Positions 17,057-37,280 of a stretch of DNA of 64,000 nt are shown here, in pieces; within the stretch, counting starts at the first letter, position 1; each line of letters begins with the position of its first letter. The translations under genes and the position numbers were made by a program. The notes below the pieces were generated by a model that saw only the letters and a list, made by a program, of their open reading frames with translations, was not told the origin of the DNA and ran no database searches. The stretch is from contig CAWJAX010000004.1 in NCBI GenBank assembly GCA_963841015.1, positions 1 through 64,000 of the forward strand, given 5' to 3'. Origin of the DNA: an uncultured Methanoregulaceae archaeon. GTDB taxonomy: Archaea > Halobacteriota > Methanomicrobia > Methanomicrobiales > Methanospirillaceae.

Positions 17057-17295
17057 GAAGAAATTTTTGTAAAACCCCATTTTTTAGACCACCGTCAGAA
17101 AAAACGATCCTTATATTCGGATTCCGGAAGCCTTTCCGGGATCCGGTGGGGTAAATTAGGTGGCAAAAATCACCTCGATTTAATGGCCTTTGGTGGCTTT
17201 TCAGTGAGGTACAAATCAGCCGTATTTTGGCAAACAGGCGTAAACCTCTGTTTCAATACACACCGAAACGGACGTTATTACGGGGTTTCCCGGAT
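17057..17295 (+). repeat. Dispersed structured intergenic element, copy A (3'-truncated)
   Basis: Shares ATTTAATGGCCTTTGG and GCCGTATTTTGGCAAACAG exactly with copy B, and is colinear with copy C. Confidence 0.85.
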
Positions 17296-17464
17296 CAATG
17301 TCAGGAAAGAGTACGCTGTTTCAATTCTCGCTATCCGGAGAAAAGGAGAGGTTATTGCAAACCCTTCCGGGGAAGTTACCCTTGAACCAGCTGATGAGGT
17401 GATCGTGATCGGTGCACCGCAGCTGATATATTACGCTTATCTCAGGTATTCCACCCGGAGATAA
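17290..17464 (+). pseudogene. Orphan TrkA-C (RCK-C) domain remnant
   Basis: INVRKEYAVSILAIRRKGEVIANPSGEVTLEPADEVIVIG resembles the C-terminus of the neighbouring Kef protein and has no credible start of its own. Confidence 0.7.
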
Positions 17465-17618
17465 AACCAGAGTGAGCATATCAGCCGTACAAAAATATGC
17501 CAGATTATCTTTGTAAGTATTCCTCCCATTGCCATGATCTACCTGATATTTCATATCCTGAACCGGCACAGGTCTTAAATTGATGAATTCATATCTATGA
17601 TTAAATGGATAGAAGAAG

Positions 17619-17765
17619 ATGACGAGTATTATCTGGTATATCTATAATGAAGCGCTCAAGAAGGAGCGGGAGCTGCTGGAAAAAGTAAGAAAAAAAGAAC
17701 GGGATCGACTGGATCGTATCAGAAATATTGGCAAGGACCCCGGCTCATCTCACGATAAGAAATAA
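17619..17765 (+). CDS. Possible 48-aa charged microprotein
   Basis: MTSIIWYIYNEALKKERELLEKVRKKERDRLDRIRNIGKDPGSSHDKK; protein-like helical composition is the only support. Confidence 0.35.
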   Translation: MTSIIWYIYNEALKKERELLEKVRKKERDRLDRIRNIGKDPGSSHDKK

Positions 17766-17829
17766 TGCTGAGAACTTATTGAACGCTAAAACCCCGTTTA
17801 TTAAAATAACAAAAACGTACATGAGAAGG

Positions 17830-19845
17830 TTATTTCCTGTCTTTCTTTTGGGTAAACAGGTATGTACCCTTCGCAACATCTTCCGGCTTTGCATAAATAA
17901 TCGCATTATCCCCTGCCTCAATCCGGGTCTCGCCACCGATACCCGTGATTACCTCTTCTCCCCGCCGGATGGCCAGGACGAGAAGGTTGTGTCGTTTTCT
18001 CAGATTGATTTCTCCGAGCGTTGTGCCGGCAAGCAGGGACCCGGGTTCAACCGTAAGGGTAGTTATACTGACCTCGGGGATATACCGCACGAGATCCGGC
18101 AGCGTTCCCGGCACCGTGCTCGTTGTACGCAACATCTGGTACCCGTCAGCACGAACATCGGTAATAAACGACTCGATCCGGTCCCGCGGCACGAAATACT
18201 TGTTCAGAACGACAGTAAAGATCTCCACAGACGTTTCAAACTCCTCGGCAATGACCTCATCGGCCCCAATCTCATGGAGTGCCTCAACTTCACTGACATA
18301 GCGTGTCCTGACGATAATAGTCAGTTCAGAACTGAGGCCGCGGCAGGTGCTGACAATCTTTCGGACCGCAACGGGATCATTGATGGCCACGACGGCGATC
18401 CGTGCAGTCGGGATTCCCGCATGAGAGAGCACACCTTCGCTGGTTGCATCCCCAAATATGATGGGCTCACCCTGCTTCCGGGATTCCATGACAAGGTCAG
18501 GATTGAGCTCGATAATCGTATAATCGATACCAGCCCTGCGGGCAGTGCGGGCGAGGTTCCTGCCGGTGACACCATACCCGATGATAACCAGATGATCTTT
18601 CTTCGTCTTGCGTGATGCGGGATCATCAATACTGCACGTTCCCCGCGTGATAAGGGAGAGGGCAGGTTGTTGACAGAGCCATCCGGCGACCGGTGGGCCA
18701 ATACCGATCACAAACGGCGTAACTGCCATGGTGATGAGAGCAACAATGAGGAAGGTCTGGTAGGTTTCAAAGGGAAGAATACCCGTAATAAATCCACTCT
18801 GGGCAATAATCAACGAGAATTCTCCGACCTGTGCAAGGGCAAGTCCTGTCATCAATGAGGTCCTCAGGGGGTATCCGAGTGCGAGAGGAGCAGCAGTGGC
18901 GAGCAGGGCCTTGACCACAATCGCAAGAACGATCAGGAATGCAATGATCCAGAAATTTTCAAGCAGGAACCGGAAATCCACCAGCATGCCGACGGAGATA
19001 AAGAAGAAGCTCGTGAAAATGTCCCGGAACGGGAGGACGATACTGGAGGCCTGGCGGCTGTATTCCGATCCTGAGATAAGTAATCCGGCAAAAAGGGCTC
19101 CGATAGCAATAGAGATCCCGGACAGGGAGACCAACCATGCCACGCCAAAACAGACCAGGATGACAAAGAGTAAGAAGAATTCCTGGTTGCGGGTTCGTGC
19201 AATCTCGTGCATGAGCCGGGGTATTACCCATCTTGCAGATACAACAAGGACCAGCACAATGAGGAGATCCTGGATTACCAGGGTCACCAGGGAATCCGCT
19301 GAAAGCAGGGGTGTAGGATCGAACAGGGACAGGCTCGCGAGGAAGGGGATGGCCATGATCATGGGAACTGCCATGAGGTCCTGGAAGATCAGGATGCCGA
19401 GCGCAATGCTGCCATGCGGGGAATCCATATCCCCTTTGTCGTGCAGGATTTTCAGAACGATGGCTGTACTGGACAACGAGAAGAGAAAACCCATCAGGAT
19501 CGCTTCACCGGCAGGAAGCCCCAGCAACAGGGCAAGTCCGCAGAAGAAGGCAAAGGAGAGGCCGACCTGCAGTGCGCCGCCGGCAATTGCGATGAGCCGG
19601 ATCTTCCAGAGGTCCTTGAAAGAGAATTCAAGTCCTATCGTAAAGAGCAGGAGGATTATCCCAATCTCGGCAAGATTTTTTACCTGCTCCTGCCCCTGGA
19701 TAATGCTCAATCCATACGGTCCGACGATGACACCCGTAAGGATATATGCCACAAGGGGAGGTACCTTAATCCTGTTGAAGATCATCCCGACTATAAGCGC
19801 TATGGCAAAAACAATCAGGATGTCCGTTAAGAGTTCAAAAACCAT
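17830..19845 (-). CDS. Kef-type (CPA2) cation:proton antiporter with TrkA-N and TrkA-C domains
   Basis: LLFTIGLEFS, LSSTAIV, QVGEFS, IIGYGVTG and FGDAT motifs. Confidence 0.93.
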   Translation of the reverse strand: MVFELLTDILIVFAIALIVGMIFNRIKVPPLVAYILTGVIVGPYGLSIIQGQEQVKNLAEIGIILLLFTIGLEFSFKDLWKIRLIAIAGGALQVGLSFAFFCGLALLLGLPAGEAILMGFLFSLSSTAIVLKILHDKGDMDSPHGSIALGILIFQDLMAVPMIMAIPFLASLSLFDPTPLLSADSLVTLVIQDLLIVLVLVVSARWVIPRLMHEIARTRNQEFFLLFVILVCFGVAWLVSLSGISIAIGALFAGLLISGSEYSRQASSIVLPFRDIFTSFFFISVGMLVDFRFLLENFWIIAFLIVLAIVVKALLATAAPLALGYPLRTSLMTGLALAQVGEFSLIIAQSGFITGILPFETYQTFLIVALITMAVTPFVIGIGPPVAGWLCQQPALSLITRGTCSIDDPASRKTKKDHLVIIGYGVTGRNLARTARRAGIDYTIIELNPDLVMESRKQGEPIIFGDATSEGVLSHAGIPTARIAVVAINDPVAVRKIVSTCRGLSSELTIIVRTRYVSEVEALHEIGADEVIAEEFETSVEIFTVVLNKYFVPRDRIESFITDVRADGYQMLRTTSTVPGTLPDLVRYIPEVSITTLTVEPGSLLAGTTLGEINLRKRHNLLVLAIRRGEEVITGIGGETRIEAGDNAIIYAKPEDVAKGTYLFTQKKDRK

Positions 19846-19935
19846 AGGAATACGTTAGATTACCTTTGTCGGGAAATACAAAAAATTATTCGCAGATTAG
19901 AAAAAGTAGTGGGCTTACTTAAAAAAAATGAGAAA

Positions 19936-20686
19936 TCAGGGAGCCTGCCGGACGATAACCGAGGCCGACTCGTCAAACGGGTTCTTCCGCAATGCAAGGT
20001 TGAAGAGATAAGGGTAATGGTTTTAAGATATTCCATATAGATGATCCACTCGTGGATCAACCGGGTATACGCACGCTGGATATCGGGGGTGAGATGGCTT
20101 TTGTCGGATGGAGGCAATGCGGACAAGTCGCCCCGTGCTTTCAGCTCTTCGGTCAGGTGGCTGAGCGCAAGAATAAGGTCCGTGAATGATTCGTGCTCAA
20201 AGACCATGGGGTTTTCCACCAGGCGCAAAAGGAACTCCTCGTGATCGATCAGAAACCTCCGGAAATCTTCCAGGTCAATCCGGGTAAGTGAGGCACTGCA
20301 CGAATAATCATCAAGGCATTTTTGCATATCCTTAAACCTTGCCATATCCCAGGTGGCAGTGACTACCAGGCGTTTTTTCACCGGACCAATACGTTCATCG
20401 CCACCGGTCAACCGGGCAAGAAGCGGCGTCCCGAACGTGGAAAAGAAGGTGCCGATGACCATGTTCAGCTTCTCCACTTCTGCTGTTTTTCCCGGGATTC
20501 CAGCAACGGGTCAATGATAAGCGTGACAATCAGCACTTCTATCGGTATGAAAGCCAGGTCCCCGACAAAGAAGATGGACAGATGGTGCTCATCATGAAAG
20601 ATCAGGTAATGGGCAGTAAACAATACAAGAGACAGGAGGATGAGCCCTGATGCAATAATCAGTTTCCACCAAGTGTCTTCTTTCAT
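19936..20686 (-). CDS. Conserved hypothetical membrane-anchored protein, two frameshifts
   Basis: ORF 20465-20686 (DLAFIPIEVLIVTLII) continues into EKLNMVIGTFFS; the restored C-terminus reads HYPYLFNLALRKNPFD. Confidence 0.7.
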
Positions 20687-20735
20687 TTACCTTCTCCGGT
20701 TACCTTGTTGAGCGAGCAGACAATGGACCACAAGG

Positions 20736-21599
20736 ATGAGAGATATATCTGGGAGAAAAGAGAAAATGTCTGCTATGACATCAGGGGAGAAAACAGAGAG
20801 TCACACAGACCCGAAAAAATCCTGGAGATGCACCGTATGTGGTTTTGTCCTTGCAGGTGAAAAGCCGCCTAAGGGCTGCCCCGTATGCCACAGCCCGTCC
20901 CATGAATTTATTCAGGAAACGGACCGGGTACACCTCACCTATGAGGGTAAGCCATTTGATGTCCTGCTGATCAACGGCAGCACGCACCGCGCCGGAAACA
21001 CCGGTTACATGGCCGATATTGCTGAAGAGTATCTCCGTGAACGGGGGGTGAGTTATCGCAGGTATAACCTGAGCGAGTACCGCATCGATCCCTGCTGGTG
21101 TTGTTATGCCGTGCGGGCTCAGTCCTGCACCTACCCGTGCCGGAACAAGTATGACGATACGCCCGCCTTCCACGAGATGCTTGTCGCATCGAAAGCCGTC
21201 ATTGTTGCCTCACCGATCAACTGGAACGGTATGTCGGCACGCCTCAAGATCTTCCTTGACCGGACGACCTGTCTTGAAAATCTCTACCACCTCAACAAAC
21301 CCGGCCTGACCGAGGGGAAGGTGGCGGGTATCCTTGTCTGCGGCCACGAAGACGGAGCGATAAAGACCTCCATGGATATCTGGCTGAATTTCCAGCAGAT
21401 GGGATATGTACTTGCGCCATTCGGTATTGCATTCAGGACGCACGGGTCGCAGTTCAACAGCAGCACGGACCGGGAATTCTTCCGGAACGATGAGCTGATT
21501 GTACGCCAGACAAAGGGCGTTGTGAACAATGTGATCGAACTCATGAGGCTCGGTAACGAATCACAGCTGAAAGGGAAACTCGTGCCGGTCACTGAATGA
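20736..21599 (+). CDS. Rubredoxin-like domain fused to an iron-sulfur flavoprotein (flavodoxin-like)
   Basis: WRCTVCG..CPVC, then INGSTHRAGNT, PCWCCY..CTYPC and ASPINW. Confidence 0.85.
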   Translation: MRDISGRKEKMSAMTSGEKTESHTDPKKSWRCTVCGFVLAGEKPPKGCPVCHSPSHEFIQETDRVHLTYEGKPFDVLLINGSTHRAGNTGYMADIAEEYLRERGVSYRRYNLSEYRIDPCWCCYAVRAQSCTYPCRNKYDDTPAFHEMLVASKAVIVASPINWNGMSARLKIFLDRTTCLENLYHLNKPGLTEGKVAGILVCGHEDGAIKTSMDIWLNFQQMGYVLAPFGIAFRTHGSQFNSSTDREFFRNDELIVRQTKGVVNNVIELMRLGNESQLKGKLVPVTE

Positions 21600-21655
21600 A
21601 TAGTAGCCAGAAGGGTATTATCCCCATGAAAGGGTATCCTTCTGAAACGAGTCCT

Positions 21656-21953
21656 GAAGAAATTTTTATAATAATCCTTTTTTTATCAACCATCGGAAAA
21701 AACGAGCCTCATATTCTCGTTCTGGCTGGGTTTCTGAGGCCAGGATGGGATAAGTTAGGTGGCAAAGTTCTCCTCAATTTAATGGCCTTTGGCGACCTTT
21801 CAGTGAGGTGCAAATCTGCCGTATTTTGGCAAACAGAGCGAATATATGGCGTATTTTCCACAGGAACCGAAAAGGAGCATAATCCAGAGATTTCAGAATT
21901 TGTCCGGTATAAAAGACGGAAAAACGGAGCCCAATTTGGGCTTATTTCCCCAT
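21656..21953 (+). repeat. Dispersed structured intergenic element, copy B (longest)
   Basis: Aligns with copy A at its 5' end and with copy C through its 3' hairpin GAGCCCAATTTGGGCTT. Confidence 0.85.
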
Positions 21954-22009
21954 TGATACCATTATCCCTCATAGCATCTTTTCCTGTCTCAACAATTCAG
22001 AATTAACAG

Positions 22010-22732
22010 CTAACCGTAAATCGTAATGATATAGTATATCCCGACTACGATGAAAACCAAAGCAACCGCCCTCCGGATCCAGACCTCCGCTATTCCTATT
22101 CTCTGCACAGTTCCTTTGCACTTTCCTGCGCCTTTTACAAGAAGATATGAAATTAGAATGACCGGCAATCCTGTCGCAAGTGCGAACACCGCCGGGATGA
22201 CCAGCGGATCCCCCGCACCAATCGCGAGCGGGATGAGCATGGCAAAGAAGAGTACGGCGGAAAACGGACAGAAACTCAGCGCAAAGATAACCCCCAGCAG
22301 GAATGCCCCCAGGTATCCCTTGTCTGCAAGCCGTGCCGGTATCCCGGACGTGAACCCGGAGAACCAGTCTCCTCCGGGAAGCCGATCGAAATGGAAGATA
22401 TCGAGAAGATAAATGCCGCACAAGACCAGGAACGGTCCGAGCAGAAGTTCCCCGTAATGCTGGAGTCCCAACGCCAGGGTCTGGAGATTCATCCCAAAGA
22501 ATACAATAGCTGATGCGACTGCGATATACGCCGCCATCCTGCCGAGGGTGTACACGAACCCGGTGAGCAGGGTATGACGGCTGTTGTCAATCCTCTTCGA
22601 GATATAGGCAATGGCGGTGATATTGGTCGCAAGGGGGCAGGGGCTGATAGCGGTCATCAGCCCGAGGAAAAAAGCGGCAATAACAGGGACGGGGCTTTCC
22701 CCCATCGTCCCGAGAAATTGCAGGAGATCCAT
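22010..22732 (-). CDS. ArsG-like / CcdA-like membrane protein
   Basis: AISPCPLATNITAI and ALSFCPFSAVLFF motifs; downstream of an ArsF-like gene. Confidence 0.75.
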   Translation of the reverse strand: MDLLQFLGTMGESPVPVIAAFFLGLMTAISPCPLATNITAIAYISKRIDNSRHTLLTGFVYTLGRMAAYIAVASAIVFFGMNLQTLALGLQHYGELLLGPFLVLCGIYLLDIFHFDRLPGGDWFSGFTSGIPARLADKGYLGAFLLGVIFALSFCPFSAVLFFAMLIPLAIGAGDPLVIPAVFALATGLPVILISYLLVKGAGKCKGTVQRIGIAEVWIRRAVALVFIVVGIYYIITIYG

Positions 22733-22733
22733 T

Positions 22734-23234
22734 TCAGGTGAGATCCCCGTTCAGGCGCCGTGAGATAACATTTGTGAGATATGCCTTGTATTTCTCTTTA
22801 TCCCCGGTCAAGTACCAGACGTCCATATTCTGTTGCCGGTGAAAACCGTTGGTATCGTAAATTCCAAACCAGAGTGAGGACCCGGTCACACCATATTTTG
22901 CTGAAAGGACAGCGTTCTCCGGCAGATCATAGTTGACATGCGCAAAGACAAGTCGGCCTGAAACAAGTTCGTCTTTGAAATTGGCATTCACTGTTTTTTC
23001 CGCGAGGTCCCCGACTGCGATGCAGGATGAACACTGGTTGTTGCCATGAAAGTGGTAGATCTCCACCCGTTCAACGGAGCTGTTGATACCCGTTGCTCCG
23101 GGTGGTGATGTGTACTGCTGATTGACGGCAGGTAATTTCGCAGGCGAAGTGCACCCGGCTGCTAAACCGCTAGCAACAATCAGGGCGATAAACAATACTA
23201 CCAGGTAAATTCGTTGAAGGTCTGTCATAATCAC
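22734..23234 (-). CDS. ArsF-like thioredoxin-fold lipoprotein
   Basis: Signal peptide with an AAGC lipobox; VEIYHFHGNNQCSSC and AKYGVTGSSL. Confidence 0.72.
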   Translation of the reverse strand: MIMTDLQRIYLVVLFIALIVASGLAAGCTSPAKLPAVNQQYTSPPGATGINSSVERVEIYHFHGNNQCSSCIAVGDLAEKTVNANFKDELVSGRLVFAHVNYDLPENAVLSAKYGVTGSSLWFGIYDTNGFHRQQNMDVWYLTGDKEKYKAYLTNVISRRLNGDLT

Positions 23235-23506
23235 TCGTTATCCGCAAGCAGCGAACGCATCACACCGGAAACTTCTGAAGACAGGTCGTCAGTTTGTATC
23301 AGCGAGAGGCAGCAGATAGTATCCTCCTTCATCCAGCTGATAAGAGCAAGCTTGTCACCGTCTCTGATGTTCGCTTTTTTCCGGATCTCTTTGGGAAGCA
23401 CAATCTGCCCCCGGTTATCCATTGAAAGTACTGCTTCGACCTGGCACGCCAGATTGCTATCAGATGTACAAGATCTGTCTGAGCGGTTTGGGTTCATTTG
23501 GGTCAC
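23231..23506 (-). CDS. AbrB/MazE-fold protein, HgcAB-associated (HgcC-like)
   Basis: CQVEAVLSMDNRGQIVLPKEIR..GDKLALIS..ICCLSLI. Confidence 0.7.
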   Translation of the reverse strand: MTQMNPNRSDRSCTSDSNLACQVEAVLSMDNRGQIVLPKEIRKKANIRDGDKLALISWMKEDTICCLSLIQTDDLSSEVSGVMRSLLADNE

Positions 23507-23889
23507 GCACTCTCATAAGCGAACTTCTGTCCCTTCTCTGTAAGCCGGTAGATGATCCAGTTACCATGCTGTTCTCCTTCTATAAGATCAACTCTTTTAA
23601 GCCCCGTGAGATGGTACGAGAGTTTCGAATCTGCAATTCCAATACAGTCCTTGATAATGCAGACACAGAGCGGCTGGATGGCAAGCAGGTAGAGGATAGT
23701 CAACCGGACAGGATCGGAAAGTGCGTTATGTATCGCGCTCATCTCCATGATATTTTTTGGTTTCGGCAGGTGTCTGCACAGCCCATTCACCCCTCCGACT
23801 GCATCGAGATTACAGGGTACTGAAGCGGGTATATCTATCCTGTGCACGGCCTCCTTTTTGGATTTTACCGCTGGTCTTTTTATCATCAA
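23503..23889 (-). CDS. arsR: ArsR/SmtB family regulator (paralog 1)
   Basis: ALSDPVRL..PLCVC..SKLSYHL..GNWIIY. Confidence 0.9.
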   Translation of the reverse strand: MMIKRPAVKSKKEAVHRIDIPASVPCNLDAVGGVNGLCRHLPKPKNIMEMSAIHNALSDPVRLTILYLLAIQPLCVCIIKDCIGIADSKLSYHLTGLKRVDLIEGEQHGNWIIYRLTEKGQKFAYESA

Positions 23890-23903
23890 AAAATCCCCCG
23901 GCT

Positions 23904-23976
23904 ATTTCAAACAAACATGAAATGCGTAGCTATAAATATCTTGCCCGACAATTTTGGATTCAATTAAATTTGAAAT
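23904..23976. promoter_or_regulatory. Pair of TTCAA-N6-WTGAA inverted repeats flanking a TATA box (candidate ArsR operators)
   Basis: ATTTCAA-acaaac-ATGAAAT (23904-23923) and GATTCAA-ttaaat-TTGAAAT (23957-23976), with TATAAATA between them. Confidence 0.7.
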
Positions 23977-24156
23977 TTCCTGAATGAGGATGACGAATAG
24001 TGGCTCTCTGTGAAGGATGCGTTGGGTGGGGCGAGGATCCCCCGGCTCTTTTTTTGAAACGGCAATAATTTTGGAAATATTTCGCTTAAGATACAGAATT
24101 GGAAATCTATCTTTCAAAATCACGATGATATCGGATTAACAAAGAGGAAAATATCC

Positions 24157-26828
24157 ATGGATAAAAACGATCTTAAACCGGCGATTGAGACAGTCACGCT
24201 CCAGATTGGTGGAATGGACTGTACCTGCAACGCCGATCTGCTAGCCAGAAAACTGGATGCTCTCACCGGCATCCGTAGCCACGAGATTACGCCGGTTACC
24301 GGCCAGGCCCGGGTCAGCTACGATCCCGAGGTTATCAGCGTCCAGGAAATCATAAGGACCGTCGCGGAGGCGGGGATGACAGCCTCACAGATCCGCAGCG
24401 AGGGACGGACGAGCACCTGGTGGCGGGAGCCACAGCAGCTGGCACTCTATGGTTGCGGGATTATCGCCCTCATCGCGTTCATCTCGGGCTACTCCGGTGC
24501 TCCGATCCTTGTCACCAATGGGCTCTACCTGCTCGCCGTCATTGTCGGGGTCTACTACCCGGCACGGAAGGCGCTGATCGCACTTCGCGCCATGACGCCA
24601 ACGATCCACCTGCTCATGCTGATCGGCTCGGTCGGCGCGATGGCACTCGGACTCTGGGGCGAAGCTGCTGTCCTGATCTTCGTCTACTCGCTCGGCGACG
24701 TCCTCGAGTCCTATGCCGTGGACAAGGCCCGCGGTGCGATCCGGTCGCTCATGGAGCTGATGCCGAAAGAGGCGCTGGTCAGAAGAAACGGTTGCGAGTC
24801 TGTCTGTGCGGTTGAGTCGATCGGTGTCGGCGAGGTTGTCATCGTTCGTCCGGGCGAGCGGATCCCAGTCGATGGCACCGTTGTCGCAGGGTCGTCTTAC
24901 GTAAATCAGGCTGCAGTTACCGGAGAGCCCGTGCCGGTACGGTGCGAACCCGGCTCTGATGTTTTCGCCGGGACGATCAACCAGAACGGGTCTCTCGAGG
25001 TCCGGGTCACCAAGCCGGCGTCCGAGACGATGCTCTCGCGGATCATCCTCTCGGTTGAGGAGGCACAAGCACAGCGGACCTCGTACCAGCGGTTCTCGGA
25101 CTCCTTCGGAAAATGGTATACGCCGGCAATGTTCGTCCTCGGCATACTCGTCGCCACCGTACCGCCGCTCTTCTTCGGCGCCGAATGGTACCCGTTCATC
25201 TACCGTGGGCTCGTTGTCTTCGTGGTCTCGTGTTCATGCGGTCTCGCCCTCTCGGTCCCCGTCGCAGTGGTGGGAGCGATGGCAAACGCAGCAAAGCAGG
25301 GAACGGTCTTCAAAGGCGGGGTCTATCTCGAGACGGTCGATAAGGTGAAGGTGATCGCTTTTGACAAGACCGGGACCCTTACCATCGGCCGTCCTGCGGT
25401 TACGGATGTTGTAACTTTCGGTGATCTCCGGGAGGATGAACTGCTCGACCTTGCCGGATGCATCGAGTCCAGATCCGGCCACCCGTTGGCAGCCGCAATC
25501 GTCCGGAAGGCTAAAGAAAGCGGTAAGTTCTCAGCCAGACCTGCCTGAGAACTTCGATGAGATTGCAGGACGTGGGGTCTCGGCCACTATCGATGGACAG
25601 GCCTTCCGGATCGGCAGCCCCAGTGCCCTGCTCGAACAGGGTGTTGATACCCGCCGGGCTGAAGAAGACATTGTCCGGCTTGAGAACGAAGGCCGGACCG
25701 TTGTCCTGGTCAGTCGCGACGGTTCGCTCGCCGGACTTATCGCGATTGCCGATGAAGTGCGGGCCGGTGCAGTCGAGGCCCTGCAACGCCTCTCCCGTGC
25801 CGGTGTCCGGACCATCATGCTGACCGGTGACAATGAGCGGAGTGCGCAGGCTATCGCACACCGTATCGGCGTTGACGAGTACCGGGCCCATCTCCTGCCA
25901 ACTGACAAGGTCGACGTTGTGCGGCAGCTCAGGAAACAGTACCGGACCGGTCGCCATGGTTGGCGATGGGATCAATGACGCACCGGCCATGGCCGTTGCG
26001 GATGTCGGTATCGCCATGGGTGCGGCAGGCACGGATATCGCGATCGAAGCCGGGGACATTGTCCTGATGTCCGACGACCTCGGAAAGATCGCGTACGTCC
26101 GGGAGCTCTCCCACCGGACCGTTTCCACGATCCGGCAGAACATCGCTGTCTCATTGATCAACGTCGCGTTCATGGTTATCGCAGCCCTCCTTGGTTACCT
26201 CGGTCTGGTCACGGGCTTGCTCCTCAACGAGGCGAGCGCTGTCTTTGTGATCCTGAACGCCCTGCGGTTGCTGAAATGGAAGAGCCCGGCAGATACCGGG
26301 AAACCGGTGGTTACGGGAGTAACTGTCACCGCTCAAGGCAAACCGAAACGGTTCCGATGGAAACGCTGGCGTCACCCGCGAATGGGGGAACCTGCTGTTC
26401 CTGCACGGAGACAACCCCGGTTGTGTCAAAGTCAATCCCAGAAACCACTAGTGCGGTAGAATCCTGTTGTTCCTGCACAGCCTCACTCGCTGAAGCACCG
26501 GCCCCGGTTGCAGAGGTTGCAAAAAGTTCCTGTTGCTGTTCCAGTGAGGCACAACCGACCGGAGCATCCGCTCCTGTTCCTAAGACCAACAATGCGAATG
26601 AACCGGGGGCATTGGAGATTGCAAAGTTCCGGATCGAAGGGCTTGGTTGTTCCTGTGAAGGCCAGATCGTTGAGAAGCAGGTAAAATCTCTTCGTGGGAT
26701 TGTCAGCTTTCGGTCTGAACCCCATCACCAACAAAATGAAGGTCAGTTACGATCCCTCGATAGTTTCTATCCAGGATATTGAAGCAGCGGTGACAAAAGC
26801 GGGTGTAACTGCCATACCCTTGAAGTAA
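24157..26828 (+). CDS. Heavy-metal P1B-type ATPase with N- and C-terminal HMA domains, four frameshifts
   Basis: VTGEP, DKTGT, SGHP, MLTGD and GDGIND are spread across consecutive overlapping ORFs. The TM motif is SCSC; the HMA motifs are GMDCTC and GLGCSC. Confidence 0.88.
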
Positions 26829-29638: not shown

Positions 29639-29663
29639 TTGCGGATAGTGAGCACCGGGGCGG

Positions 29664-29968: not shown

Positions 29969-29984
29969 CCTGAGGTCAATCCGT

Positions 29985-30395
29985 ATGATACCACCACGAT
30001 ACAAGCGTCTGGAGATTGAATGGAAACATTTCGCGGTTGGCGATGCAACCTGTGAGCGATGCGGGAATACCGGTGAAGCGCTCAAAGAGACTGTCGAAGA
30101 ACTAAAGCGTGAGTTTGCTCCTGCAGGAGTGAAGATCAACCTGACCGAGACGCTCCTTGACAAAACACGCATAGCGGAGTCAAACGAGATCCGGATGAAC
30201 GGGATGTTGATCGAAGACCTGCTCGCTGCCGGGGTTGTTTCGACCGACTGTCCTTCCTGTGGTACACTTGCGGGGGAGAGTACCTGCTGCCGGGCGATAG
30301 AGATTGACAATGAACGATTCGAGGATATACCGGCAGAAATGATCAAGAAAGCAGTGTACCTCGCATTGAGCATGAGCACCCCTTCTAAAAAGTGA
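29985..30395 (+). CDS. DUF2703-like Cys-rich protein
   Basis: [18 protein letters not shown] and CPSCG..CCR motifs. Confidence 0.75.
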
Positions 30396-30432
30396 ACTAA
30401 CTATTGAAGAAAAAAGGCATCCAGGATTACGT

Positions 30433-31509
30433 ATGACAACGACAAAACAACTCTCCTTCCTTGACCGCTACCTGACCCTCTGGATTTTCCTTGCGATGGC
30501 TGTCGGTATCGGTATTGGGTACTTTTTACCTGCGGTACCGCTCGTGATTACGGGCCTTTCGGTCGGGACAACGTCGATTCCGATTGCCATCGGGCTCATC
30601 CTGATGATGTACCCGCCGCTCGCTAAGGTGAAGTACGAGGAGCTTGGGAAAGTGTTCCAGGATCGGAAGGTGCTGGGCTTATCGCTCGTCCAGAACTGGA
30701 TTGTCGGACCGGTACTGATGTTTGTCCTTGCCGTCATCTTCCTCCGCGACCAGCCAATGTTCATGTATGGCCTGATCCTCGTCGGCATTGCCCGCTGTAT
30801 CGCGATGGTTATTGTCTGGAATGATCTCGCTGAAGGCGACTGTGAGTACTGTGCTGCTATTGTGGGCCTGAACTCGGTTTTCCAGGTCTTTTTCTACTCG
30901 GTCTATGCATGGTTCTTCATCACCTACCTGCCCCCGCTGCTTGGCATTGGGACGGGTTCTGAGGTCTCGATCACGATGCTCCAGATTGCCGAGAGTGTCT
31001 TCATCTATCTCGGCATCCCGTTCATTGCCGGCATTGTCACGCGTTATATCCTGATCCGCGTGAAATCAAAGGCGTGGTACGAACAGGTATTCATCCCGAA
31101 GATCTCCCCGATTACGCTGATTGCCCTGCTCTTTACGATCATCGTGATGTTCTCCCTGAAAGGGGAGTATATTGTCAACGTCCCCCTTGCTGTCGTCCAG
31201 GTTGCAATCCCGCTGCTCTTCTACTTCGTCATCATGTTCTTTGCGAGCTTCTGGATGTCCTGGCGTCTCGGTGTTGATTACCCTAAGTCGGCATCGCTCT
31301 CATTCACGGCGGCATCCAATAACTTCGAGCTTGCAATTGCAGTTGCCATTGCTGTCTTTGGCATTGCATCACCAGCGGCATTCGCCACGGTGATCGGGCC
31401 GCTTGTCGAAGTGCCCGTTCTGATTTCACTCGTGAATGTCTCGTTCTGGCTTAAGAAGAGATGGTATGGCGGGAAGAGTGATGATACGTGCAGCCCTTCG
31501 TTACGGTGA
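30433..31509 (+). CDS. acr3: Acr3 family arsenite efflux transporter
   Basis: [37 protein letters not shown] and GPLVEVP motifs. Confidence 0.95.
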
Positions 31510-31525
31510 AAAAACAGGTGGTCTG

Positions 31526-31939
31526 ATGAAAAAGAAAGTCTTGTTTATCTGCACCCATAACTCGGCCCGCTCACAGATGGCAGAAGGGTATATGAAGGCA
31601 AAGTATGGTGACCGCTACGAAGTATCCAGTGCCGGAACTGAAGTAACCCGGGTCCACCCGATGGCAATTGAGGTCATGAAGGAGATTGGAATCGACATCA
31701 CCAGTCACCGTTCGAAACTAATCGATGAGTTCTTCGGTAAAGGAATAGGTACCGTAGTGACGGTCTGCGATTCTGCACAGAAAGCCTGTCCGTTTTTCCC
31801 GGGTGCAAAGGAAGAAATTCACCGGAGTTTTCCGGATCCTTCGGCATTTAATGGGTCTGATGAGGAGATCCGGGCCGGGTTCCACCGCGTGAGAGATGAG
31901 ATTATCCAATGGATCGATGAATATTTTACAAGAAGGTAA
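31526..31939 (+). CDS. arsC: Arsenate reductase (thioredoxin-coupled, LMW-PTP fold)
   Basis: FICTHNSARSQMAEG, TVCD..ACPFFP and FPDP motifs. Confidence 0.92.
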   Translation: MKKKVLFICTHNSARSQMAEGYMKAKYGDRYEVSSAGTEVTRVHPMAIEVMKEIGIDITSHRSKLIDEFFGKGIGTVVTVCDSAQKACPFFPGAKEEIHRSFPDPSAFNGSDEEIRAGFHRVRDEIIQWIDEYFTRR

Positions 31940-31943
31940 AACC

Positions 31944-32780
31944 ATGACTGACGAACACGAAATACGGAAACAAGTACGGAAAAGCTACGCAAAGGTTGTT
32001 GAAGGGAGTAGCGGATGCAGCTGCGGCCCAAATTCCTCTTGCTGTGGCGGAGCGACAACGGCAGAACAGATAAGCGCGAAGGTCGGCTACTCAGCCGAGG
32101 AGATGGGGGCTGTCCCGGAGGGGGCAAATCTCGGCCTCGGGTGCGGGAACCCGCTTGCCCATGCAGCGATTCATGAAGGGGACACAGTCCTAGATCTGGG
32201 ATCCGGTGCCGGGTTCGATTGTTTCCTTGCTGCCCGGAAAGTCGGAAAGACAGGACGGGTTATCGGGGTTGACATGACGCACGAGATGCTGCTGAAAGCA
32301 CGGGAAAATGCGAAAAAGTCGGGTGCAACCAATGTAGAGTTCCGGCTCGGGGAAATCGAAGCCCTGCCGGTTGCTGATAACTCCGTTGATCTTATCATCT
32401 CAAATTGTGTTATCAATCTCTCTCCTGACAAGGCGAGAGTCTTCCGCGAGGCATTCCGGGTGCTGAAGCCGGGGGGATTGCTCATGGTTTCAGATATTGT
32501 CCTGACCCGTGAACTTCCGGAATCAGTGCGTACTTCGATGGAAGCCTATGCCAGCTGCATCGCGGGTGCGAGCCTGAAAGATGCCTATCTTGACCTGATC
32601 CGAAAGGCACATTTTTCCGATGTAGCGGTACTTGAGGAAACCGCCGTACCTTTCGGGCTGGCAGTGGCAGACCCCCTTATAAAAGCAGGTTTTGAGTCCC
32701 TGTCCCTTTCGAAAGATGAATACACACAAATCACGGAATCGGTGAAGAGTGTGAAGGTAAAGGCGATAAAAAGAAGATGA
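31944..32780 (+). CDS. arsM: Arsenite methyltransferase
   Basis: NLGLGCGNP, LDLGSGAGFDC, IISNCVINL and ASCIAGA motifs. Confidence 0.93.
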   Translation: MTDEHEIRKQVRKSYAKVVEGSSGCSCGPNSSCCGGATTAEQISAKVGYSAEEMGAVPEGANLGLGCGNPLAHAAIHEGDTVLDLGSGAGFDCFLAARKVGKTGRVIGVDMTHEMLLKARENAKKSGATNVEFRLGEIEALPVADNSVDLIISNCVINLSPDKARVFREAFRVLKPGGLLMVSDIVLTRELPESVRTSMEAYASCIAGASLKDAYLDLIRKAHFSDVAVLEETAVPFGLAVADPLIKAGFESLSLSKDEYTQITESVKSVKVKAIKRR

Positions 32781-32813
32781 CTGTTAGATTATAATCCAAT
32801 CCTTTGAATCAAG

Positions 32814-33179
32814 GTGAGAGAAATTACTGACGAAAGTCCATTGATCCTTATCACCTGCTCGGGTGTTTCCAATACCGGGAAACTGACGGCACAGGTCGCG
32901 GGAATCCTTGCGCAGAAAGAACCGGATCTCTTTGAGGGGCACGTGCATGTAAAGCAGTCCACCCGCGATATGGAAGCGGTAATCAATGGTGGTAAGGTGG
33001 TGGTGATTGACGGATGCGGAGATCGGTGTGCAGCAAAGAAACTCAAAAGTTTTTTCATTACCCCCCATATCCATATCATCGCGACTGAAGAGGGAATCGA
33101 AAAGAACGGAATGGGTGACCCGAAGTTCGAAGAGATTGAAACGCTCATCGCGGCGGTTCGCAGGGAAGTTCGGCGATAA
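32814..33179 (+). CDS. DGC-domain putative zinc-binding protein (second copy)
   Basis: TCSGVSNTGKL and IDGCGDRCAAK motifs. Confidence 0.8.
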   Translation: MREITDESPLILITCSGVSNTGKLTAQVAGILAQKEPDLFEGHVHVKQSTRDMEAVINGGKVVVIDGCGDRCAAKKLKSFFITPHIHIIATEEGIEKNGMGDPKFEEIETLIAAVRREVRR

Positions 33180-33356
33180 TCCAGATCGTGTATGTAAAAA
33201 ATGAATAGATGAATTATGGAAATGGTGAAGAAATACTGAATTTCCTGTACTCAGTTAAAATTTTTGCGGGGGACTGGAAGACCACAAAAAAATCTTTCAT
33301 GCCCGGATTTGAATGATCGATAAGAAACTCGCCTGTTTGAAATCAGTGACGGAATC

Positions 33357-34274
33357 ATGAACGCTATAGAAGCCGGGCATCTCATCAAAAGATTTGGTAC
33401 GGTAACCGCAGTGAACGATGTCAGCCTTACGGTGCGTGAGGGAGAAATCTTCGGGTTCCTCGGCCCCAACGGGGCCGGAAAGACGACGACGATGCGCCTG
33501 CTCACCAGCGTTCTTACTCCGGACGCAGGAACAGTCCTCATCAACGGCATTGATATCCACCGTCATCCGCTGGATGCCAAGATGCAGATGGGTGTCATCC
33601 CGGAGAACAGCTCGGTCTACGCAGACATGTCCGCGGAGCAGAACCTGCATCTGAGTGGGCAGATGTACGGCATGTCCCGGGCACTCCGGGAAGAGAGGAT
33701 CGATGAGATACTCTCAAGGATGGGCCTTTCTGAGAAACGACGCCTCCCGGTCCGTACATTCTCGAAAGGGATGAAGCAGCGTGTAAGTATCGCATGCGCC
33801 ATCATCCACCGGCCTAAAGTCCTGTTTCTCGATGAGCCCACAAGCGGCCTTGACGTGCAGAGTCGCAGACTCGTGATCGAGACGATTCGTCAAATGAACG
33901 AGCAGGGAAGTACAATCTTCCTCACCACGCATAACATCGAAGAGGCAAACACGCTCTGCCAGACAGTCTGCATCATTAATAAAGGGAAGATCGTTGCACA
34001 GGACAGTCCCGAACGGCTTAAAAAGATGTTCGATACTACGCAGTCCGTAGAGGTTTCCTTTGACCGGGCTGTAACCCGGGACTTGTTCGCAGCGGAAGGG
34101 ATTTTGCGGGCGGAGCAATGCGGTGACAAGTGGAGGTTGTATACGGACAATCCGGACATGATCCTGAAATACCTTGTCGGGCGTGCCGAACGCGAGTCCA
34201 TTGGCATCACATCCCTCACGACCTCCGGTCCGAGCCTTGAAGAGGCATTTGTCACGCTAACGGAGTGTGCATGA
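33357..34274 (+). CDS. ABC-2 type exporter ATP-binding subunit
   Basis: GPNGAGKTT, FSKGMKQR and LDEPTSGLD motifs. Confidence 0.93.
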   Translation: MNAIEAGHLIKRFGTVTAVNDVSLTVREGEIFGFLGPNGAGKTTTMRLLTSVLTPDAGTVLINGIDIHRHPLDAKMQMGVIPENSSVYADMSAEQNLHLSGQMYGMSRALREERIDEILSRMGLSEKRRLPVRTFSKGMKQRVSIACAIIHRPKVLFLDEPTSGLDVQSRRLVIETIRQMNEQGSTIFLTTHNIEEANTLCQTVCIINKGKIVAQDSPERLKKMFDTTQSVEVSFDRAVTRDLFAAEGILRAEQCGDKWRLYTDNPDMILKYLVGRAERESIGITSLTTSGPSLEEAFVTLTECA

Positions 34275-35020
34275 TGGAGATACCGATATTCCTTCGCGGT
34301 ATCCTCGTCATTACCGAAAAAAACATGAGGCTGTATTACACCAAACCGCCAGTCCTTATGTTCGGGCTCCTCTTCCCGCTCTTCATGTTCTTTGCGTTCT
34401 TCGTCGGGCGTAAACTCGAGCTGACCACCTATTTTCCGGCGTTCCTGGCGATGATGCTGTTTTTCACTGCGTCATCGGTAGGCCCGCTGATCACACCATG
34501 GGAGAAACGGGATAAGACGTATGAACGGCTCCTCTCGTACCCGGTAACGCAGGACATCATCATCCTCGGCGACGTTGCAGCGGGTGCGATCTTCGGGATT
34601 GGGATCTCCCTGCTTATATGGATTTTGAGTTCCCAGTTTATTCCAATTGCAGTCACGAGCCTGGGGTTATTTGTCCTTGCGTTTGTCCTCGGCACGCTTT
34701 CCTGTTCCGCGATGGGGGTCCTAATCGTATCGCCGGGATCCGACAACCCGCCCAACGTGATGATCTTCTCAAACCTGATCCGGTTCCCACTTATCTTCAT
34801 CTCCGGCATCTTTGTTCCCCTCGCGGATATGCAAGGATTGGCCCTTACGCTCGCGTATTTTTCACCTCTGACGTACCTTGTCGACTTGTTCAACGCTGCC
34901 ATGAACGGAATATCAGTATTTTCACCGGCTGTTGATTGTGGGGTGCTCATTGGTATCTTCGCCGGTTTTCTCCTTGCTGCACGGTTCATTCAGAAACGGA
35001 ATCTGATGAAGGGAATGTGA
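34265..35020 (+). CDS. ABC-2 type exporter permease
   Basis: Six TM segments with FISGIFVP and SPLTYLVD; overlaps the ATPase gene. Confidence 0.9.
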   Translation: MCMMEIPIFLRGILVITEKNMRLYYTKPPVLMFGLLFPLFMFFAFFVGRKLELTTYFPAFLAMMLFFTASSVGPLITPWEKRDKTYERLLSYPVTQDIIILGDVAAGAIFGIGISLLIWILSSQFIPIAVTSLGLFVLAFVLGTLSCSAMGVLIVSPGSDNPPNVMIFSNLIRFPLIFISGIFVPLADMQGLALTLAYFSPLTYLVDLFNAAMNGISVFSPAVDCGVLIGIFAGFLLAARFIQKRNLMKGM

Positions 35021-35038
35021 GGATAAAACAGCAGGGAA

Positions 35039-35669
35039 TTATGGTCTCCAGACCTCCACCATCGATTGATCACCGTGGTATCCAAGGAACTTCTGGAGAG
35101 CGGGAAGCTCGATTTTTCTTTTTTTGGGATTGGTATCAAGGGGATTGTTGAAGTACATGAATTTGTCATTGATTCCGGTCACTACAACCCAATGAGGGAG
35201 GTCTTCTTTGCTGAAAAACAAGGAATTCGTCACCACCAGGGGAACATGGTTCGAAAACAGAGATTTGAAAATGGTTTTTCCGGTGATGGTTTCTCGTTTT
35301 TCCCTGACCCCCAGTTTTCTGCATCTGGTTCTTCGTTCGTAAAACTGGTCCTTGAGCATCTCCATATCCGGGGCGTTCAGTGGTGGAACGAACTGTTCAG
35401 CAAAATCAATTCCACCACTATTGCTGGTAACTCTTGCGGAAAATCCACGAACTGCTGCAGAAAAAGCCAGACCATACCTGCTTGTTCCATAGACAGCTGA
35501 CAAGGGTTCCTTCCCTCCAGAGGTCCAATTCCAACTCTTTTCCGAGGCGCACTTCCTTATCCAGGTACTTCATTGCCATCATCAATGAAGCCGGGCCGCA
35601 GGTGAAGTCATAATGCTGCCGGTAAAAGGGAATATTCAGTTGGATAGACGCTCCGTTGTCAGCCTGCAT
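35039..35669 (-). CDS. Peptidase C39-like protein, frameshift near 35500
   Basis: PFYRQHYDFTCGPASLMMA and LWRE in one frame; PHWVVVTG..FNNP in the next. Confidence 0.78.
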
Positions 35670-35843
35670 GTCCTGTCCCCTTTTTTGTATGTGGATTGGA
35701 TGAACCTTTCTTCGATGGTGCTTTTTATTGAATACCGCTATAATTCTGAAACTTCCTGGTGATCTGAAACAGCTCATGAAAGAATGCTGCTGCAATCAAA
35801 CATGGATAATCCATCATAAAATGATATCCCGGTACATAATCCA

Positions 35844-36098
35844 TCAGCATTGCTGTTCCGATGTTTTTATTTGTGGAGTAATCCGTATGCGTTTCAGGTC
35901 ATACCATCCCTTCCCCAGCACGACGAGTCCAATCACGATAAAAAAGCAGGAATGAACTCCATAGACCCAGGTCTCAAAACCGGAATTTCCGGAAAATAAA
36001 CTCATCCAGAAGAACGGGCATACCAGACCAAAGAGGGCAAGTCCTGCACCTACTTTTACCTGGCTTTTTATCTGTTGTTCGCTGGGAGGCATTTTCAT
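35844..36098 (-). CDS. Small two-TM membrane protein (paralog of 36142-36576)
   Basis: KVG..GLVCPFFWMSLFSG..VHS. Confidence 0.7.
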   Translation of the reverse strand: MKMPPSEQQIKSQVKVGAGLALFGLVCPFFWMSLFSGNSGFETWVYGVHSCFFIVIGLVVLGKGWYDLKRIRITPQIKTSEQQC

Positions 36099-36141
36099 TA
36101 CCCTGAGGTGTTCAGCAAATCAATCATTATCAGATACCGAT

Positions 36142-36576
36142 TCATGGATTTTCATTAAATTCACGTGCCTGTTCGTTTCTCAGCTGAATCCGGTACATTA
36201 TCACGAACCCGAGACCGAATAGGAATACAAGGGACGAGTGCACGGCATTGAACATGAGTTCGTTTCCCCGGGCGCCGGACAGAAATGAGATCCAGAAGAT
36301 CGGGCAGAATATCCCGATGAGCATTATACCATACCCGATTTTTATATTGCTTTTCAGGTGGATTTCCCGGTTGGTGTTCCATTCAAGGGGTGTTCCCGTT
36401 TCCCCCCGCAGGAACTGGAGGACCTTTTTGCCAAGCATTGTGTAGGGACAGCAGGAGATCAAAAAACTGATGAATCCGCGTAGCCCTTGTTTTTGTCCCA
36501 CCGATGACTCTGATACCGGGCAGCGGATCCCGGGTGCATCACCGGAACAATTCTGTCTGATGAGCTGTCCTTTCAT
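36142..36576 (-). CDS. Membrane protein with a Cys-containing N-terminal extension
   Basis: KIG..GIFCPIFWISFLSG..VHS; divergent from hxlR. Confidence 0.7.
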   Translation of the reverse strand: MKGQLIRQNCSGDAPGIRCPVSESSVGQKQGLRGFISFLISCCPYTMLGKKVLQFLRGETGTPLEWNTNREIHLKSNIKIGYGIMLIGIFCPIFWISFLSGARGNELMFNAVHSSLVFLFGLGFVIMYRIQLRNEQAREFNENP

Positions 36577-36658
36577 TATTCAAATGTGTGACATTACTAA
36601 ATTTATAGGGGATACTAATTTAGATTTAATATACTAACAAAAAACATAGTGATATTGC

Positions 36659-37030
36659 ATGATGAAAGATCCTTCCTGTTATTTTTGCCCGGTGGAAGGC
36701 ACACTCGATGTGATCGGCGGCAAATGGAAACCGCTGATCATCTGGTTCCTGAGAAAACGTGTCCTGCGGTTCAGTGATCTCAGGCGGTCGATTCCCGGCA
36801 TCACCGATGTGATGCTGACAAAACAGTTACGGGAATTGGAACAGGATGGTATTATCAGACGAAAAGTGTATACCCAGGTCCCTCCCAAGGTCGAATATTC
36901 ACTTACACCTCTTGGGATGACGGTTATCCCGCTCCTCAATGCTCTCTGCGATTGGGCGATCGAGCATATGAAGATCCCGATGATTGACGATAATGAAATT
37001 ATTGTGTGTGGAAGAAAGAAGAAAAAATGA
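36659..37030 (+). CDS. HxlR family winged-helix regulator
   Basis: CPVEGTLDVIGGKWK..LRELEQDG..PPKVEYSLT. Confidence 0.92.
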   Translation: MMKDPSCYFCPVEGTLDVIGGKWKPLIIWFLRKRVLRFSDLRRSIPGITDVMLTKQLRELEQDGIIRRKVYTQVPPKVEYSLTPLGMTVIPLLNALCDWAIEHMKIPMIDDNEIIVCGRKKKK

Positions 37031-37280
37031 GCCTCATATTGGCGTTCTGGCAGGGTTTCTGAGGTCCGGAGGGGGTAAATATGTGGTAAAAACAATCTCG
37101 ATTTAAAGTCCTTTGATGGCCAATAGGCGAGGTGAAAATCTGCCTTAATTTGGCAAACAAAGCGAATATTGGGCATATTCTCCATACGAAACGAAAAGAA
37201 GCGTTTTACGGGTTTTTCCGGTATTGGTAAAATATATCTGGACGGGAAAAGGAGTCCATTTTGGGCGTATTTTCTCTCAT
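37021..37280 (+). repeat. Dispersed structured intergenic element, copy C
   Basis: Shares GAGCCTCATATT, GGGTTTCTGAGG and TTTGGCAAACA with copy B; starts at the hxlR stop codon. Confidence 0.82.

What the first reader, a model, noticed from the sequence alone, without database searches (positions are those of the whole stretch)
17057..37280. Unannotated ~250-300 bp structured element in three diverged, co-oriented copies
Seen: 17057-17295 (A), 21656-21953 (B) and 37021-37280 (C) are colinear homologs. Each lies just after the stop of a + strand gene and faces a convergent gene. Several stems survive the divergence. Stem 1 is CCGGA/TCCGG in A, CTGGC/GCCAG in B (two compensatory changes) and CTGG/CCGG in C. 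Stem 2 is ACCTCG/TGAGGT, TCCTCA/TGAGGT and ATCTCG/CGAGGT, so one position reads G-U, A-U and G-C. All three share a GCC..GGC hairpin before AAACA and a hairpin around TYATATT. B and C share a terminal hairpin (GCCCA/TGGGC, GTCCA/TGGGC). No terminal inverted repeat, target duplication or transposase is visible. Inference: this is a family of structured ncRNAs, 3'UTR elements or REP-like ssDNA elements that I do not recognise. Three copies in 20 kb could mean many more genome-wide.
Basis: partly seen in the sequence, partly recalled or inferred. Interest (0 to 1): 0.82.

Follow-up and report, generated by a model that had tools for sequence, protein, structure and literature searches.

The report
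Helically phased methanogen DNA repeat
The three copies belong to an undescribed, roughly 260-base DNA repeat of one methanogen family; it is not a folded RNA but a pattern of AT- and GC-rich runs in step with the DNA helix, it travels on integrating mobile elements, and it most resembles the strong DNA-gyrase sites known from bacteria.

Summary
The three copies are real (71-75% identical). The family has 8 near-full and 10 partial copies in this genome, occurs in 53 of 60 genomes of the genus, and was found in 0 of 81 genomes of sister families. What is conserved is a duplex-DNA pattern: AT/GC runs with an 11.2-bp period, near-constant length, and two 31-bp palindromes 91 bp apart. 135 of 139 copies score above the 90th percentile of intergenic DNA for the published E. 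coli gyrase motif. A second, ~320-bp family exceeds all 1,795 background windows. The host has a wrapping-type gyrase. Copies ride on unnamed tRNA-targeting integrative elements, often just behind an MreA-like regulator gene, form local co-oriented arrays, and swap flanks at their edges. Best reading (0.45): strong-gyrase-site-like elements spread by mobile DNA. Rivals: recombination accessory site, array for MreA-like protein or histones, relic. Binding is untested, and sequence divergence is near neutral. The scan had not reported this sequence before.

The parts
17092..17301 (+). Copy A of the phased repeat (type I), 3'-truncated (model positions 4-219); lacks the outer palindrome and the inner one is degraded. 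Similarity to B's 5' flank extends back to 17057
   Evidence: gyrase-motif score only at the 78.5th percentile
17297..17464 (+). Orphan TrkA_C gene fragment that replaces the 3' end of copy A (deletion junction, inferred)
   Evidence: Pfam PF02080 E=1.1e-8; translation
21690..21953 (+). Copy B, full length (model 4-267), between a flavodoxin/rubredoxin gene and a convergent DsbD_2 gene
   Evidence: second-strongest 10-12-bp-periodic window of the genome; gyrase-motif score 99.9th percentile, best centre near 21895
21829..21859 (.). Inner 31-bp imperfect palindrome of copy B
21920..21950 (.).
37020..37281 (+). Copy C, full length (model 9-270), overlapping the stop of an HxlR gene and facing a zf_CopZ gene; 92% identical to a copy in G017 with unrelated flanks on both sides
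   Evidence: gyrase-motif score 99.2nd percentile
37153..37183 (.). Inner 31-bp palindrome of copy C
37245..37275 (.). Outer 31-bp palindrome of copy C

Best explanation
A double-stranded-DNA cis-element, not an RNA. Its AT/GC runs are phased so that the DNA wraps easily in a right-handed path, and it most likely acts as a strong site for the host's DNA gyrase, as the Mu strong gyrase site, the pSC101 site and BIME-2 do in E. coli. SHOWN by computation: the phasing, the fit to the published gyrase motif, a wrapping-type gyrase in the host, carriage on tRNA-targeting integrative elements, dispersal, local co-orientation and flank exchange at the edges. INFERRED: gyrase binds and cleaves there (two preferred motif centres 112 bp apart suggest two overlapping footprints); the integrative element benefits in keeping its excised circle supercoiled or relieving torsion between convergent genes; copies are left in accessory regions when elements decay and are reshuffled by recombination or gene conversion between diverged copies. 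The palindromes may bind a helper, possibly the linked MreA-like protein. Sub-claims: duplex-DNA element rather than RNA about 0.85; spread by these integrative elements about 0.75; gyrase as main reader about 0.45.
For: Phasing: AT profile peaks at 11.25 bp, 2.43 against a median of 0.07; the 8 near-full G000 copies lie at the 97.9-100th percentile of 113,962 windows; all 139 copies beat the median of their own run-preserving shuffles, 59 beat 95%. Of 95 variable columns, 15 keep the AT/GC class, 19 purine/pyrimidine, 3 keto/amino; class-keeping transversion ratio 1.22 against 0.97 at 7,276 four-fold sites. Length: 73 of 109 copies within 1 bp of the mode, 22 shorter by 10-12 bp. Gyrase motif (G+C profile from table DS10 of PMC6379681): 135 of 139 copies above the 90th and 77 above the 99th percentile of 2,985 intergenic windows, shuffled median 3.7 against 6.2, preferred centres at model 64 and 176; all 18 type II copies exceed the maximum of 1,795 windows from their own genome. 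The motif's own spectrum has twin peaks at 10.0 and 11.2 bp with a trough at 10.6; type I shows 11.2 with a side peak at 10.2 and a trough at 10.4-10.8, type II 10.15. Both types score best at the true arm spacing, modulo one turn. G000 has gyrA with a full C-terminal domain, and its genome-wide AA/TT period is 11.3. 50 of 109 copies lie between convergent genes against 136 of 603 long gaps. Mobile carriage.
Against: No binding or cleavage data. Any strongly 10-11-bp-periodic DNA scores well: a plain 11.2-bp sinusoid also peaks at the true spacing, so type I alone does not single out gyrase, and the motif comes from E. coli. Divergence is near neutral: 0.217 in elements against 0.236 at four-fold sites and 0.163 in other intergenic DNA over 15 pairs with shared flanks, partly inflated by replacement. 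The one-turn deletions fall mostly in one segment and may be as few as 3 events. Conserved palindromes imply a sequence-specific reader, which gyrase is not. Gyrase is in 100 of 101 genomes of the order and the Rep in 58 of 101, but this repeat only in one family. 23 of 30 loci of the element's marker gene lack the repeat beside it, and G079 has 7 Rep matches and no copy. Convergent placement is expected of any harmless insertion, and those counts use my own gene caller on non-independent copies. Copy A scores only at the 78.5th percentile. The abstract start of PMC7537859 (listing only) questions reading such periods as supercoiling signals.
Confidence: 0.45

Rival explanations
1. An accessory-sequence recombination site (working like cer/psi or a phage attP, recalled): a crossover zone at one edge plus about 230 bp that wrap an architectural protein. 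Direct copies then bound exchangeable gene blocks, giving cassette-like arrays.
For: Adjacent copies are co-oriented in 27 of 30 pairs under 20 kb, 12 of 16 at 20-50 kb and 10 of 27 beyond 50 kb. Tandem diverged units of 309-395 bp occur. In 6 of 11 pairs sharing only the upstream flank the change point lies at -4 to +46 of the element. Near-identical copies sit in unrelated flanks with sharp edges. G050 carries a 19.6-kb block between two copies whose outer flanks are adjacent in G060.
Against: No match to the dif-like core of the xerA-adjacent array. The integrases sit at tRNA genes in 5 of the regions scanned, so they appear to use tRNA att sites. Change points are spread, including mid-element and 3' cases. 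Type II shows no co-orientation (15 of 26). Homologous recombination or gene conversion explains the same patterns.
Confidence: 0.2
2. A loading or wrapping array for the linked MreA-like winged-helix protein or for archaeal histones, serving chromatin organisation, silencing or partition of the mobile element.
For: 27 of 42 MreA-like genes in my loci have the element starting 30-65 bp downstream in the same orientation, and the 15 without it fall in the conserved single-copy clade. Protein and element distances correlate (Mantel rho 0.58, 0 of 2,000 permutations, 26 pairs). G000 has such a pair at C2:49380-49914. MreA binds DNA at multiple sites and is likened to TrmBL2 (passages of PMC3419521). 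G000 has two histones, which prefer alternating A/T and G/C runs (passages of PMC10151503).
Against: In a set chosen by the protein alone, only 1 of 33 non-core paralogs had a (weak) match downstream; the 27 of 42 is inflated because many loci were fetched for the element. Linkage shows co-inheritance, not binding. None of the three window copies has the gene beside it. No partition ATPase was identified among the core genes scanned.
Confidence: 0.2
3. A functionless relic or a non-autonomous mobile unit without inverted repeats; the periodicity is inherited from one ancestral sequence.
For: Near-neutral divergence; very uneven copy number, 0 to more than 50; copies absent at homologous loci: 0 of 10 homologs of B's downstream module and 2 of 30 FEN1 loci, both in close kin; decayed tails of the mobile element's marker gene remain beside many copies.
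Against: The core survives whole while its flanks are truncated at varying points. Class-keeping substitutions and constant length. A second family, mostly different in sequence, fits the same geometry. No transposase, terminal repeat or fixed insertion point.
Confidence: 0.1
4. A structured ncRNA, 3'UTR element or folded ssDNA site; the outer palindrome might double as a terminator.
For: The outer palindrome is 82% paired and reads as a terminator-like site on the minus strand in B (1 found, 0.5 expected). Short contigs in RNA-labelled runs touch the element's middle, but these are relatives' contigs and may be DNA.
Against: no Rfam match.
Confidence: 0.05

Closest known systems
Strong gyrase sites: Mu SGS, pSC101 and pBR322 sites, and the 130-bp Topo-Seq gyrase motif (PMC6379681: passages and supplement parts 1, 241, 242; PMC13284261: passages)
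   Same: Phased G+C content, high score against the motif, same twin-peak spectrum and arm spacing, carried by mobile elements, host has gyrase.
   Different: Archaeal; 260-320 bp (about two footprints); a multi-copy sequence family with conserved palindromes and a linked regulator gene; binding untested.
BIME-2 / REP repeats of E. coli (gyrase link from passages of PMC6379681; REP and RAYT biology recalled)
   Same: Dispersed intergenic repeat family containing palindromes, often at gene ends, sometimes tandem; proposed transcription-independent gyrase sites.
   Different: No hairpin covariation, no HUH transposase among 98 neighbours, one long asymmetric unit rather than short REP pairs, spread with integrative elements.
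cer/psi and phage attP accessory-sequence sites (recalled, not from a call)
   Same: Length of about 250 bp, tolerance of one-turn deletions, direct copies around accessory DNA, neighbouring DNA-binding protein.
   Different: No dif-like core, no single crossover point, integrases use tRNA sites.
High-affinity archaeal histone sites such as Clone20 (PMC10151503: passages)
   Same: Alternating A/T and G/C runs; host has histones.
   Different: Natural, multi-copy, much longer; type I period 11.2 rather than about 10.
Archaeal MITEs (PMC13343696: passages; earlier scan notes on an IS5-type MITE in this genome)
   Same: Short, non-coding, multi-copy, patchy presence.
   Different: No terminal inverted repeats, copies in one genome 70-80% identical, no linked transposase.

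Membership tests
Structured ncRNA (Rfam-type) | Consensus fold with covarying pairs | tested here: not met
Structured ncRNA (Rfam-type) | Match to a curated RNA family | tested here: not met
   (best E 5.7)
Structured ncRNA (Rfam-type) | Discrete transcript | tested here: inconclusive
   only relatives' contigs at 5-6% word share; no strand or ends
Strong gyrase site | Host encodes gyrase with a wrapping C-terminal domain | tested here: met
   PF00521 E=2.9e-161, 837-aa frame; C-terminal domain with a GyrA-box-like motif, name recalled
Strong gyrase site | Top-ranking score against the gyrase motif | tested here: met
   135 of 139 above p90, 77 above p99; 18 of 18 type II above all 1,795 background windows; G+C profile only
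Strong gyrase site | Arm-centre-arm geometry rather than plain periodicity | tested here: inconclusive
   both types peak at the true spacing; type II differs from a plain 10.2 sinusoid, type I does not differ from a plain 11.2 sinusoid
Strong gyrase site | Preferential gyrase binding or cleavage | not testable with these tools
   needs Topo-Seq or in vitro cleavage
MITE / IS end | Terminal inverted repeats | tested here: not met
   70 of 118 copies
MITE / IS end | Target-site duplication at an empty site | tested here: inconclusive
   no clean empty site: flanks differ in all homologous loci
REP/BIME with RAYT | Adjacent HUH (Y1) transposase | tested here: inconclusive
   none among 98 neighbouring proteins; no genome-wide search for the family was run
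REP/BIME with RAYT | Hairpin kept by compensatory change | tested here: not met
Xer/dif or cer-like site | dif-like core | tested here: not met
   profile of the xerA-adjacent array: elements median -4.1, random -4.0 (60 each); the true dif site of G000 is not known
Xer/dif or cer-like site | Single crossover position | tested here: inconclusive
   6 of 11 change points in a 50-bp zone, others elsewhere
Xer/dif or cer-like site | Recombinase dependence | not testable with these tools
   needs a plasmid assay
Integron attC | Folded bottom strand with R and L boxes and a linked IntI | not tested
   boxes and IntI not searched; lack of any covarying hairpin argues against
Decayed protein gene | Shared reading frame or 3-base conservation pattern | tested here: not met
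   no common open frame in 8 copies; period-3 power 0.05 against median 0.26
Histone-positioning sequence | Alternating A/T and G/C runs and histones in the host | tested here: met
   binding itself not testable

The most novel reading that the evidence does not exclude
The first natural family of strong gyrase sites in archaea: a mobile regulator-gene-plus-wrapping-site module, carried by an undescribed integrative element, that seeds chromosomes with tens of topological hot spots which also serve as exchange points for blocks of metal-resistance, defence and signalling genes, a cassette-like system built on DNA bendability rather than on a hairpin or a transposase.
Probability: 0.3. Interest if true: 0.85.

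Novelty: new variant of a known kind. Interest (0 to 1): 0.62.

Why it matters
How archaea that acquired bacterial gyrase use it alongside histones is open. None of my ten literature searches turned up a sequence-defined gyrase site or a phased repeat family in methanogens (open-access library only). These repeats give a natural, multi-copy substrate with built-in controls (truncated copy A, one-turn deletions, a second family) for testing that directly. They also mark the junctions of accessory gene blocks in a globally common methanogen genus and expose an unnamed integrative element that is widespread in the order.

Tried and rejected
RNA structure: single-sequence folding, RNAalifold, explicit stems (31; one search had the stem coordinates off by one and was corrected in 27), all-pairs covariation, Rfam. 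Pseudogene. MITE or IS; empty-site searches gave no clean site. Replichore bias: co-orientation fades with distance. dif-like core. Viral, phage and plasmid collections: no match; metagenome and all-genome pattern scans were not run, so the range beyond the searched genomes is open. Transcription: runs X1-X4 hold only relatives' contigs; no conclusion. An exclusive MreA-like partner: weakened by the blind set. Tandem periods are not consistent multiples of 11.2 or 10.5. Triple-wise mosaic test on 16 hand-picked trios showed no single crossover. The 167-aa protein of the integrative element folds confidently (pLDDT 90.5) but has no clear match (best Z 6.6) and no family hit; a viral capsid reading is unsupported. 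No solved relative of the MreA-like protein. Tandem pairs showing identity 1.0 are alignment artefacts of overlapping windows and were not counted.
Full report
Observation. The three stretches are homologous and co-oriented. A sequence-only model built from 43 copies gives 17092-17301, 21690-21953 and 37020-37281 and finds 18 matches in G000, 8 of them near full length. A is cut at its 3' end by a TrkA_C gene fragment. The window region is an accessory block of metal-handling, transport and regulatory genes. Source names of related proteins point to Methanoregula.

Range. BLAST with copy B hit 19 of 24 genomes of the genus and 0 of 16 from other families. The model hit 53 of 60 in the genus, 13 of 19 in the family and 0 of 81 in five sister families, and 46 of 77 against 0 of 73 in a larger draw. 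Matches per genome run from 0 to 53. Nothing was found in viral contigs, phages or plasmids. Metagenome collections were not scanned.

Not an RNA. Copy B folds at z -1.42 and -1.78. RNAalifold finds no pair. Among all column pairs of 139 copies, 3 exceed the simulated null and none base-pairs. Rfam is blank. There is no shared reading frame or codon-period signal. RNA-labelled runs were uninformative.

What is conserved. AT and GC runs alternate with a main period of 11.2 bp and a side peak at 10.2; local periods vary from 8.5 to 13.9 in 56-bp windows. The 8 near-full G000 copies are at the 97.9-100th percentile of the genome, whose own AA/TT period is 11.3. Shuffles that keep run lengths lose the signal. 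Variable columns keep the AT/GC class far more often than the keto/amino class (15 against 3 of 95), and length is nearly fixed apart from losses of about one turn (22 of 109). Those losses lie mostly in one segment and need at least 3 and up to 17 changes on a tree. Each full copy has two 31-bp imperfect palindromes 91 bp apart, with weaker relatives 66 and 134 bp further 5'. Against this, substitution rates are close to neutral (0.217 against 0.236; 0.097 against 0.154 and 0.156 against 0.179 in the two pairs that share both flanks closely).

A second family. Weak hits in G020 proved to be a distinct ~320-bp repeat (type II; 18 aligned of about 27 listed; median identity 0.72) that shares the 3' part and repeats the same palindrome module. 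It also occurs beside the Rep gene in G069, G043, G003 and G071.

Where it comes from. Many copies sit in or beside an unnamed integrative element: tyrosine integrase at tRNA-Leu or tRNA-Gln in 5 of 20 regions scanned, small genes, a ~1,030-aa protein matching PF27228 MTBMA_p00010 (a methanogen plasmid replication protein by recall), a 167-65-158-194-aa operon, ArdC, and defence cargo such as Dnd. Of 24 full-length Rep loci taken from the Rep hit list, 10 had a copy; of the 16 with at least 19 kb of sequence, 9 did, and 4 of the 7 misses are in G079, which has no copy at all. Four loci with only the N-terminal part of Rep had none. G050's two full copies lie 19 and 38 kb from its only Rep, and G137's only match 13 kb from a Rep. 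Lone copies often keep a truncated tail of the 194-aa gene. The link is not obligatory: 6 of 30 loci of that gene have the repeat directly behind it, one more has a partial copy further on. G000 has no Rep and only a broken operon, 30 kb from the nearest partial copy; the window holds no marker gene. An MreA-family winged-helix gene (NF053756) precedes the element at a near-fixed distance in 27 of 42 cases and co-diverges with it, but only 1 of 33 paralogs chosen blind had a weak match.

How copies behave. Neighbours are co-oriented at short range only (also 28 of 30 multi-copy loci). Tandem diverged units occur. Flanks are exchanged: copy C is 92% identical to a G017 copy with unrelated flanks, and several pairs share one flank at 86-95% while the elements are 63-77% alike. 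Breaks cluster at the 5' edge and just behind the outer palindrome but are not at one base. There are no terminal repeats, no adjacent transposase and no clean empty site. Recombination or gene conversion between diverged copies is the simplest reading; a site-specific reaction is not excluded.

Mechanism. The E. coli gyrase motif is 130 bp with two 10.75-bp-periodic arms around a 36-bp centre, and known strong sites score highest with it (passages of PMC6379681); gyrase wraps DNA in an underwound right-handed path (passages of PMC13284261). Using the G+C profile of its table DS10, most type I copies and all type II copies tested rank at the top of their backgrounds. The whole motif has spectral peaks at 10.0 and 11.2, the periods seen in types II and I, and both types fit best at the real arm spacing. 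A plain 11.2 sinusoid does the same, so the geometric argument rests on type II. The host has gyrase, two histones and one tyrosine recombinase. I therefore put gyrase first (0.45), a recombination accessory site and a chromatin-protein array at 0.2 each, a relic at 0.1 and RNA at 0.05. These roles are not exclusive.

Known and new. It works like a strong gyrase site or BIME-2 by computation, but membership is untested at the defining step. It fails the tests for ncRNA, MITE and dif. Ten searches of the open-access library found no description (most papers seen as listings only; passages read for PMC13284261, PMC6379681, PMC13343696, PMC3419521, PMC10151503). Subscription papers and supplements other than the three parts read could bear on novelty. 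Earlier scan notes hold no look-alike; notes on a MITE and a xerA-adjacent array in this genome appear to concern other DNA. Verdict: real, not RNA, new variant of a known kind, interest 0.62.

Noticed in passing
G020 loci L129-L132, L134-L148; also L226, L246, L247, L250: Type II repeat, ~320 bp, about 27 copies in G020, built of the same palindrome module, often beside small toxin-antitoxin-like genes; L148 looks like a type II/type I hybrid.
   Followed up: partly
L310:1211, 7251, 18501 (G019) and L327:1272 (G166): A third conserved ~350-bp non-coding element follows MreA-like genes in genomes with few or no type I matches; its periodicity is weak.
   Followed up: partly
L089, L109, L110 (G060:C1:396800-427000) and relatives: Unnamed tRNA-targeting integrative element with a PF27228 Rep, found in 43 of 72 genomes of the genus and 58 of 101 of the order, carrying Dnd and restriction-like cargo.
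   Followed up: partly
L109:18068-19865: Conserved 167-65-158-194-aa operon without family hits; the 167-aa protein has over 2,000 relatives and no clear fold match; C-terminal fragments of the 194-aa gene are scattered in many genomes.
   Followed up: partly
G000:C5:408741, C4:142641, C2:450601: Strongly periodic intergenic windows that do not match the family model, the first being the top-scoring window of the genome.
   Followed up: no
window 20766-21599 and L025:5577-6440; L025:7597-8310 and L026:1202-1915: Near-duplicate accessory genes close to different copies of the repeat in G000.
   Followed up: no
L161-L190, downstream of the FEN1 gene: The DNA right after FEN1 differs in nearly every genome, an insertion hot spot; L179 and L182 show degenerate periodic-looking stretches there.
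   Followed up: no
G073:C1:1.49-2.58 Mb; G020:C1 gap 1.80-2.40 Mb: Copies are confined to part of the chromosome in complete genomes.
   Followed up: no
L022:3977-4270 and L029:4110-5142: One copy in G000 and three tandem copies in G007 lie just downstream of the mcr operon, which would suit a role in relieving transcription-driven torsion.
   Followed up: no
window 19860-20686, 24157-26782, 37974-39933: Genes split into consecutive frames (a membrane protein, a heavy-metal P-type ATPase, a CO dehydrogenase), either frameshifted or assembly errors.
   Followed up: no
G000:C2:370420-371470: The AT-rich tandem array downstream of xerA noted earlier by the scan is present and unrelated to this repeat.
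   Followed up: partly
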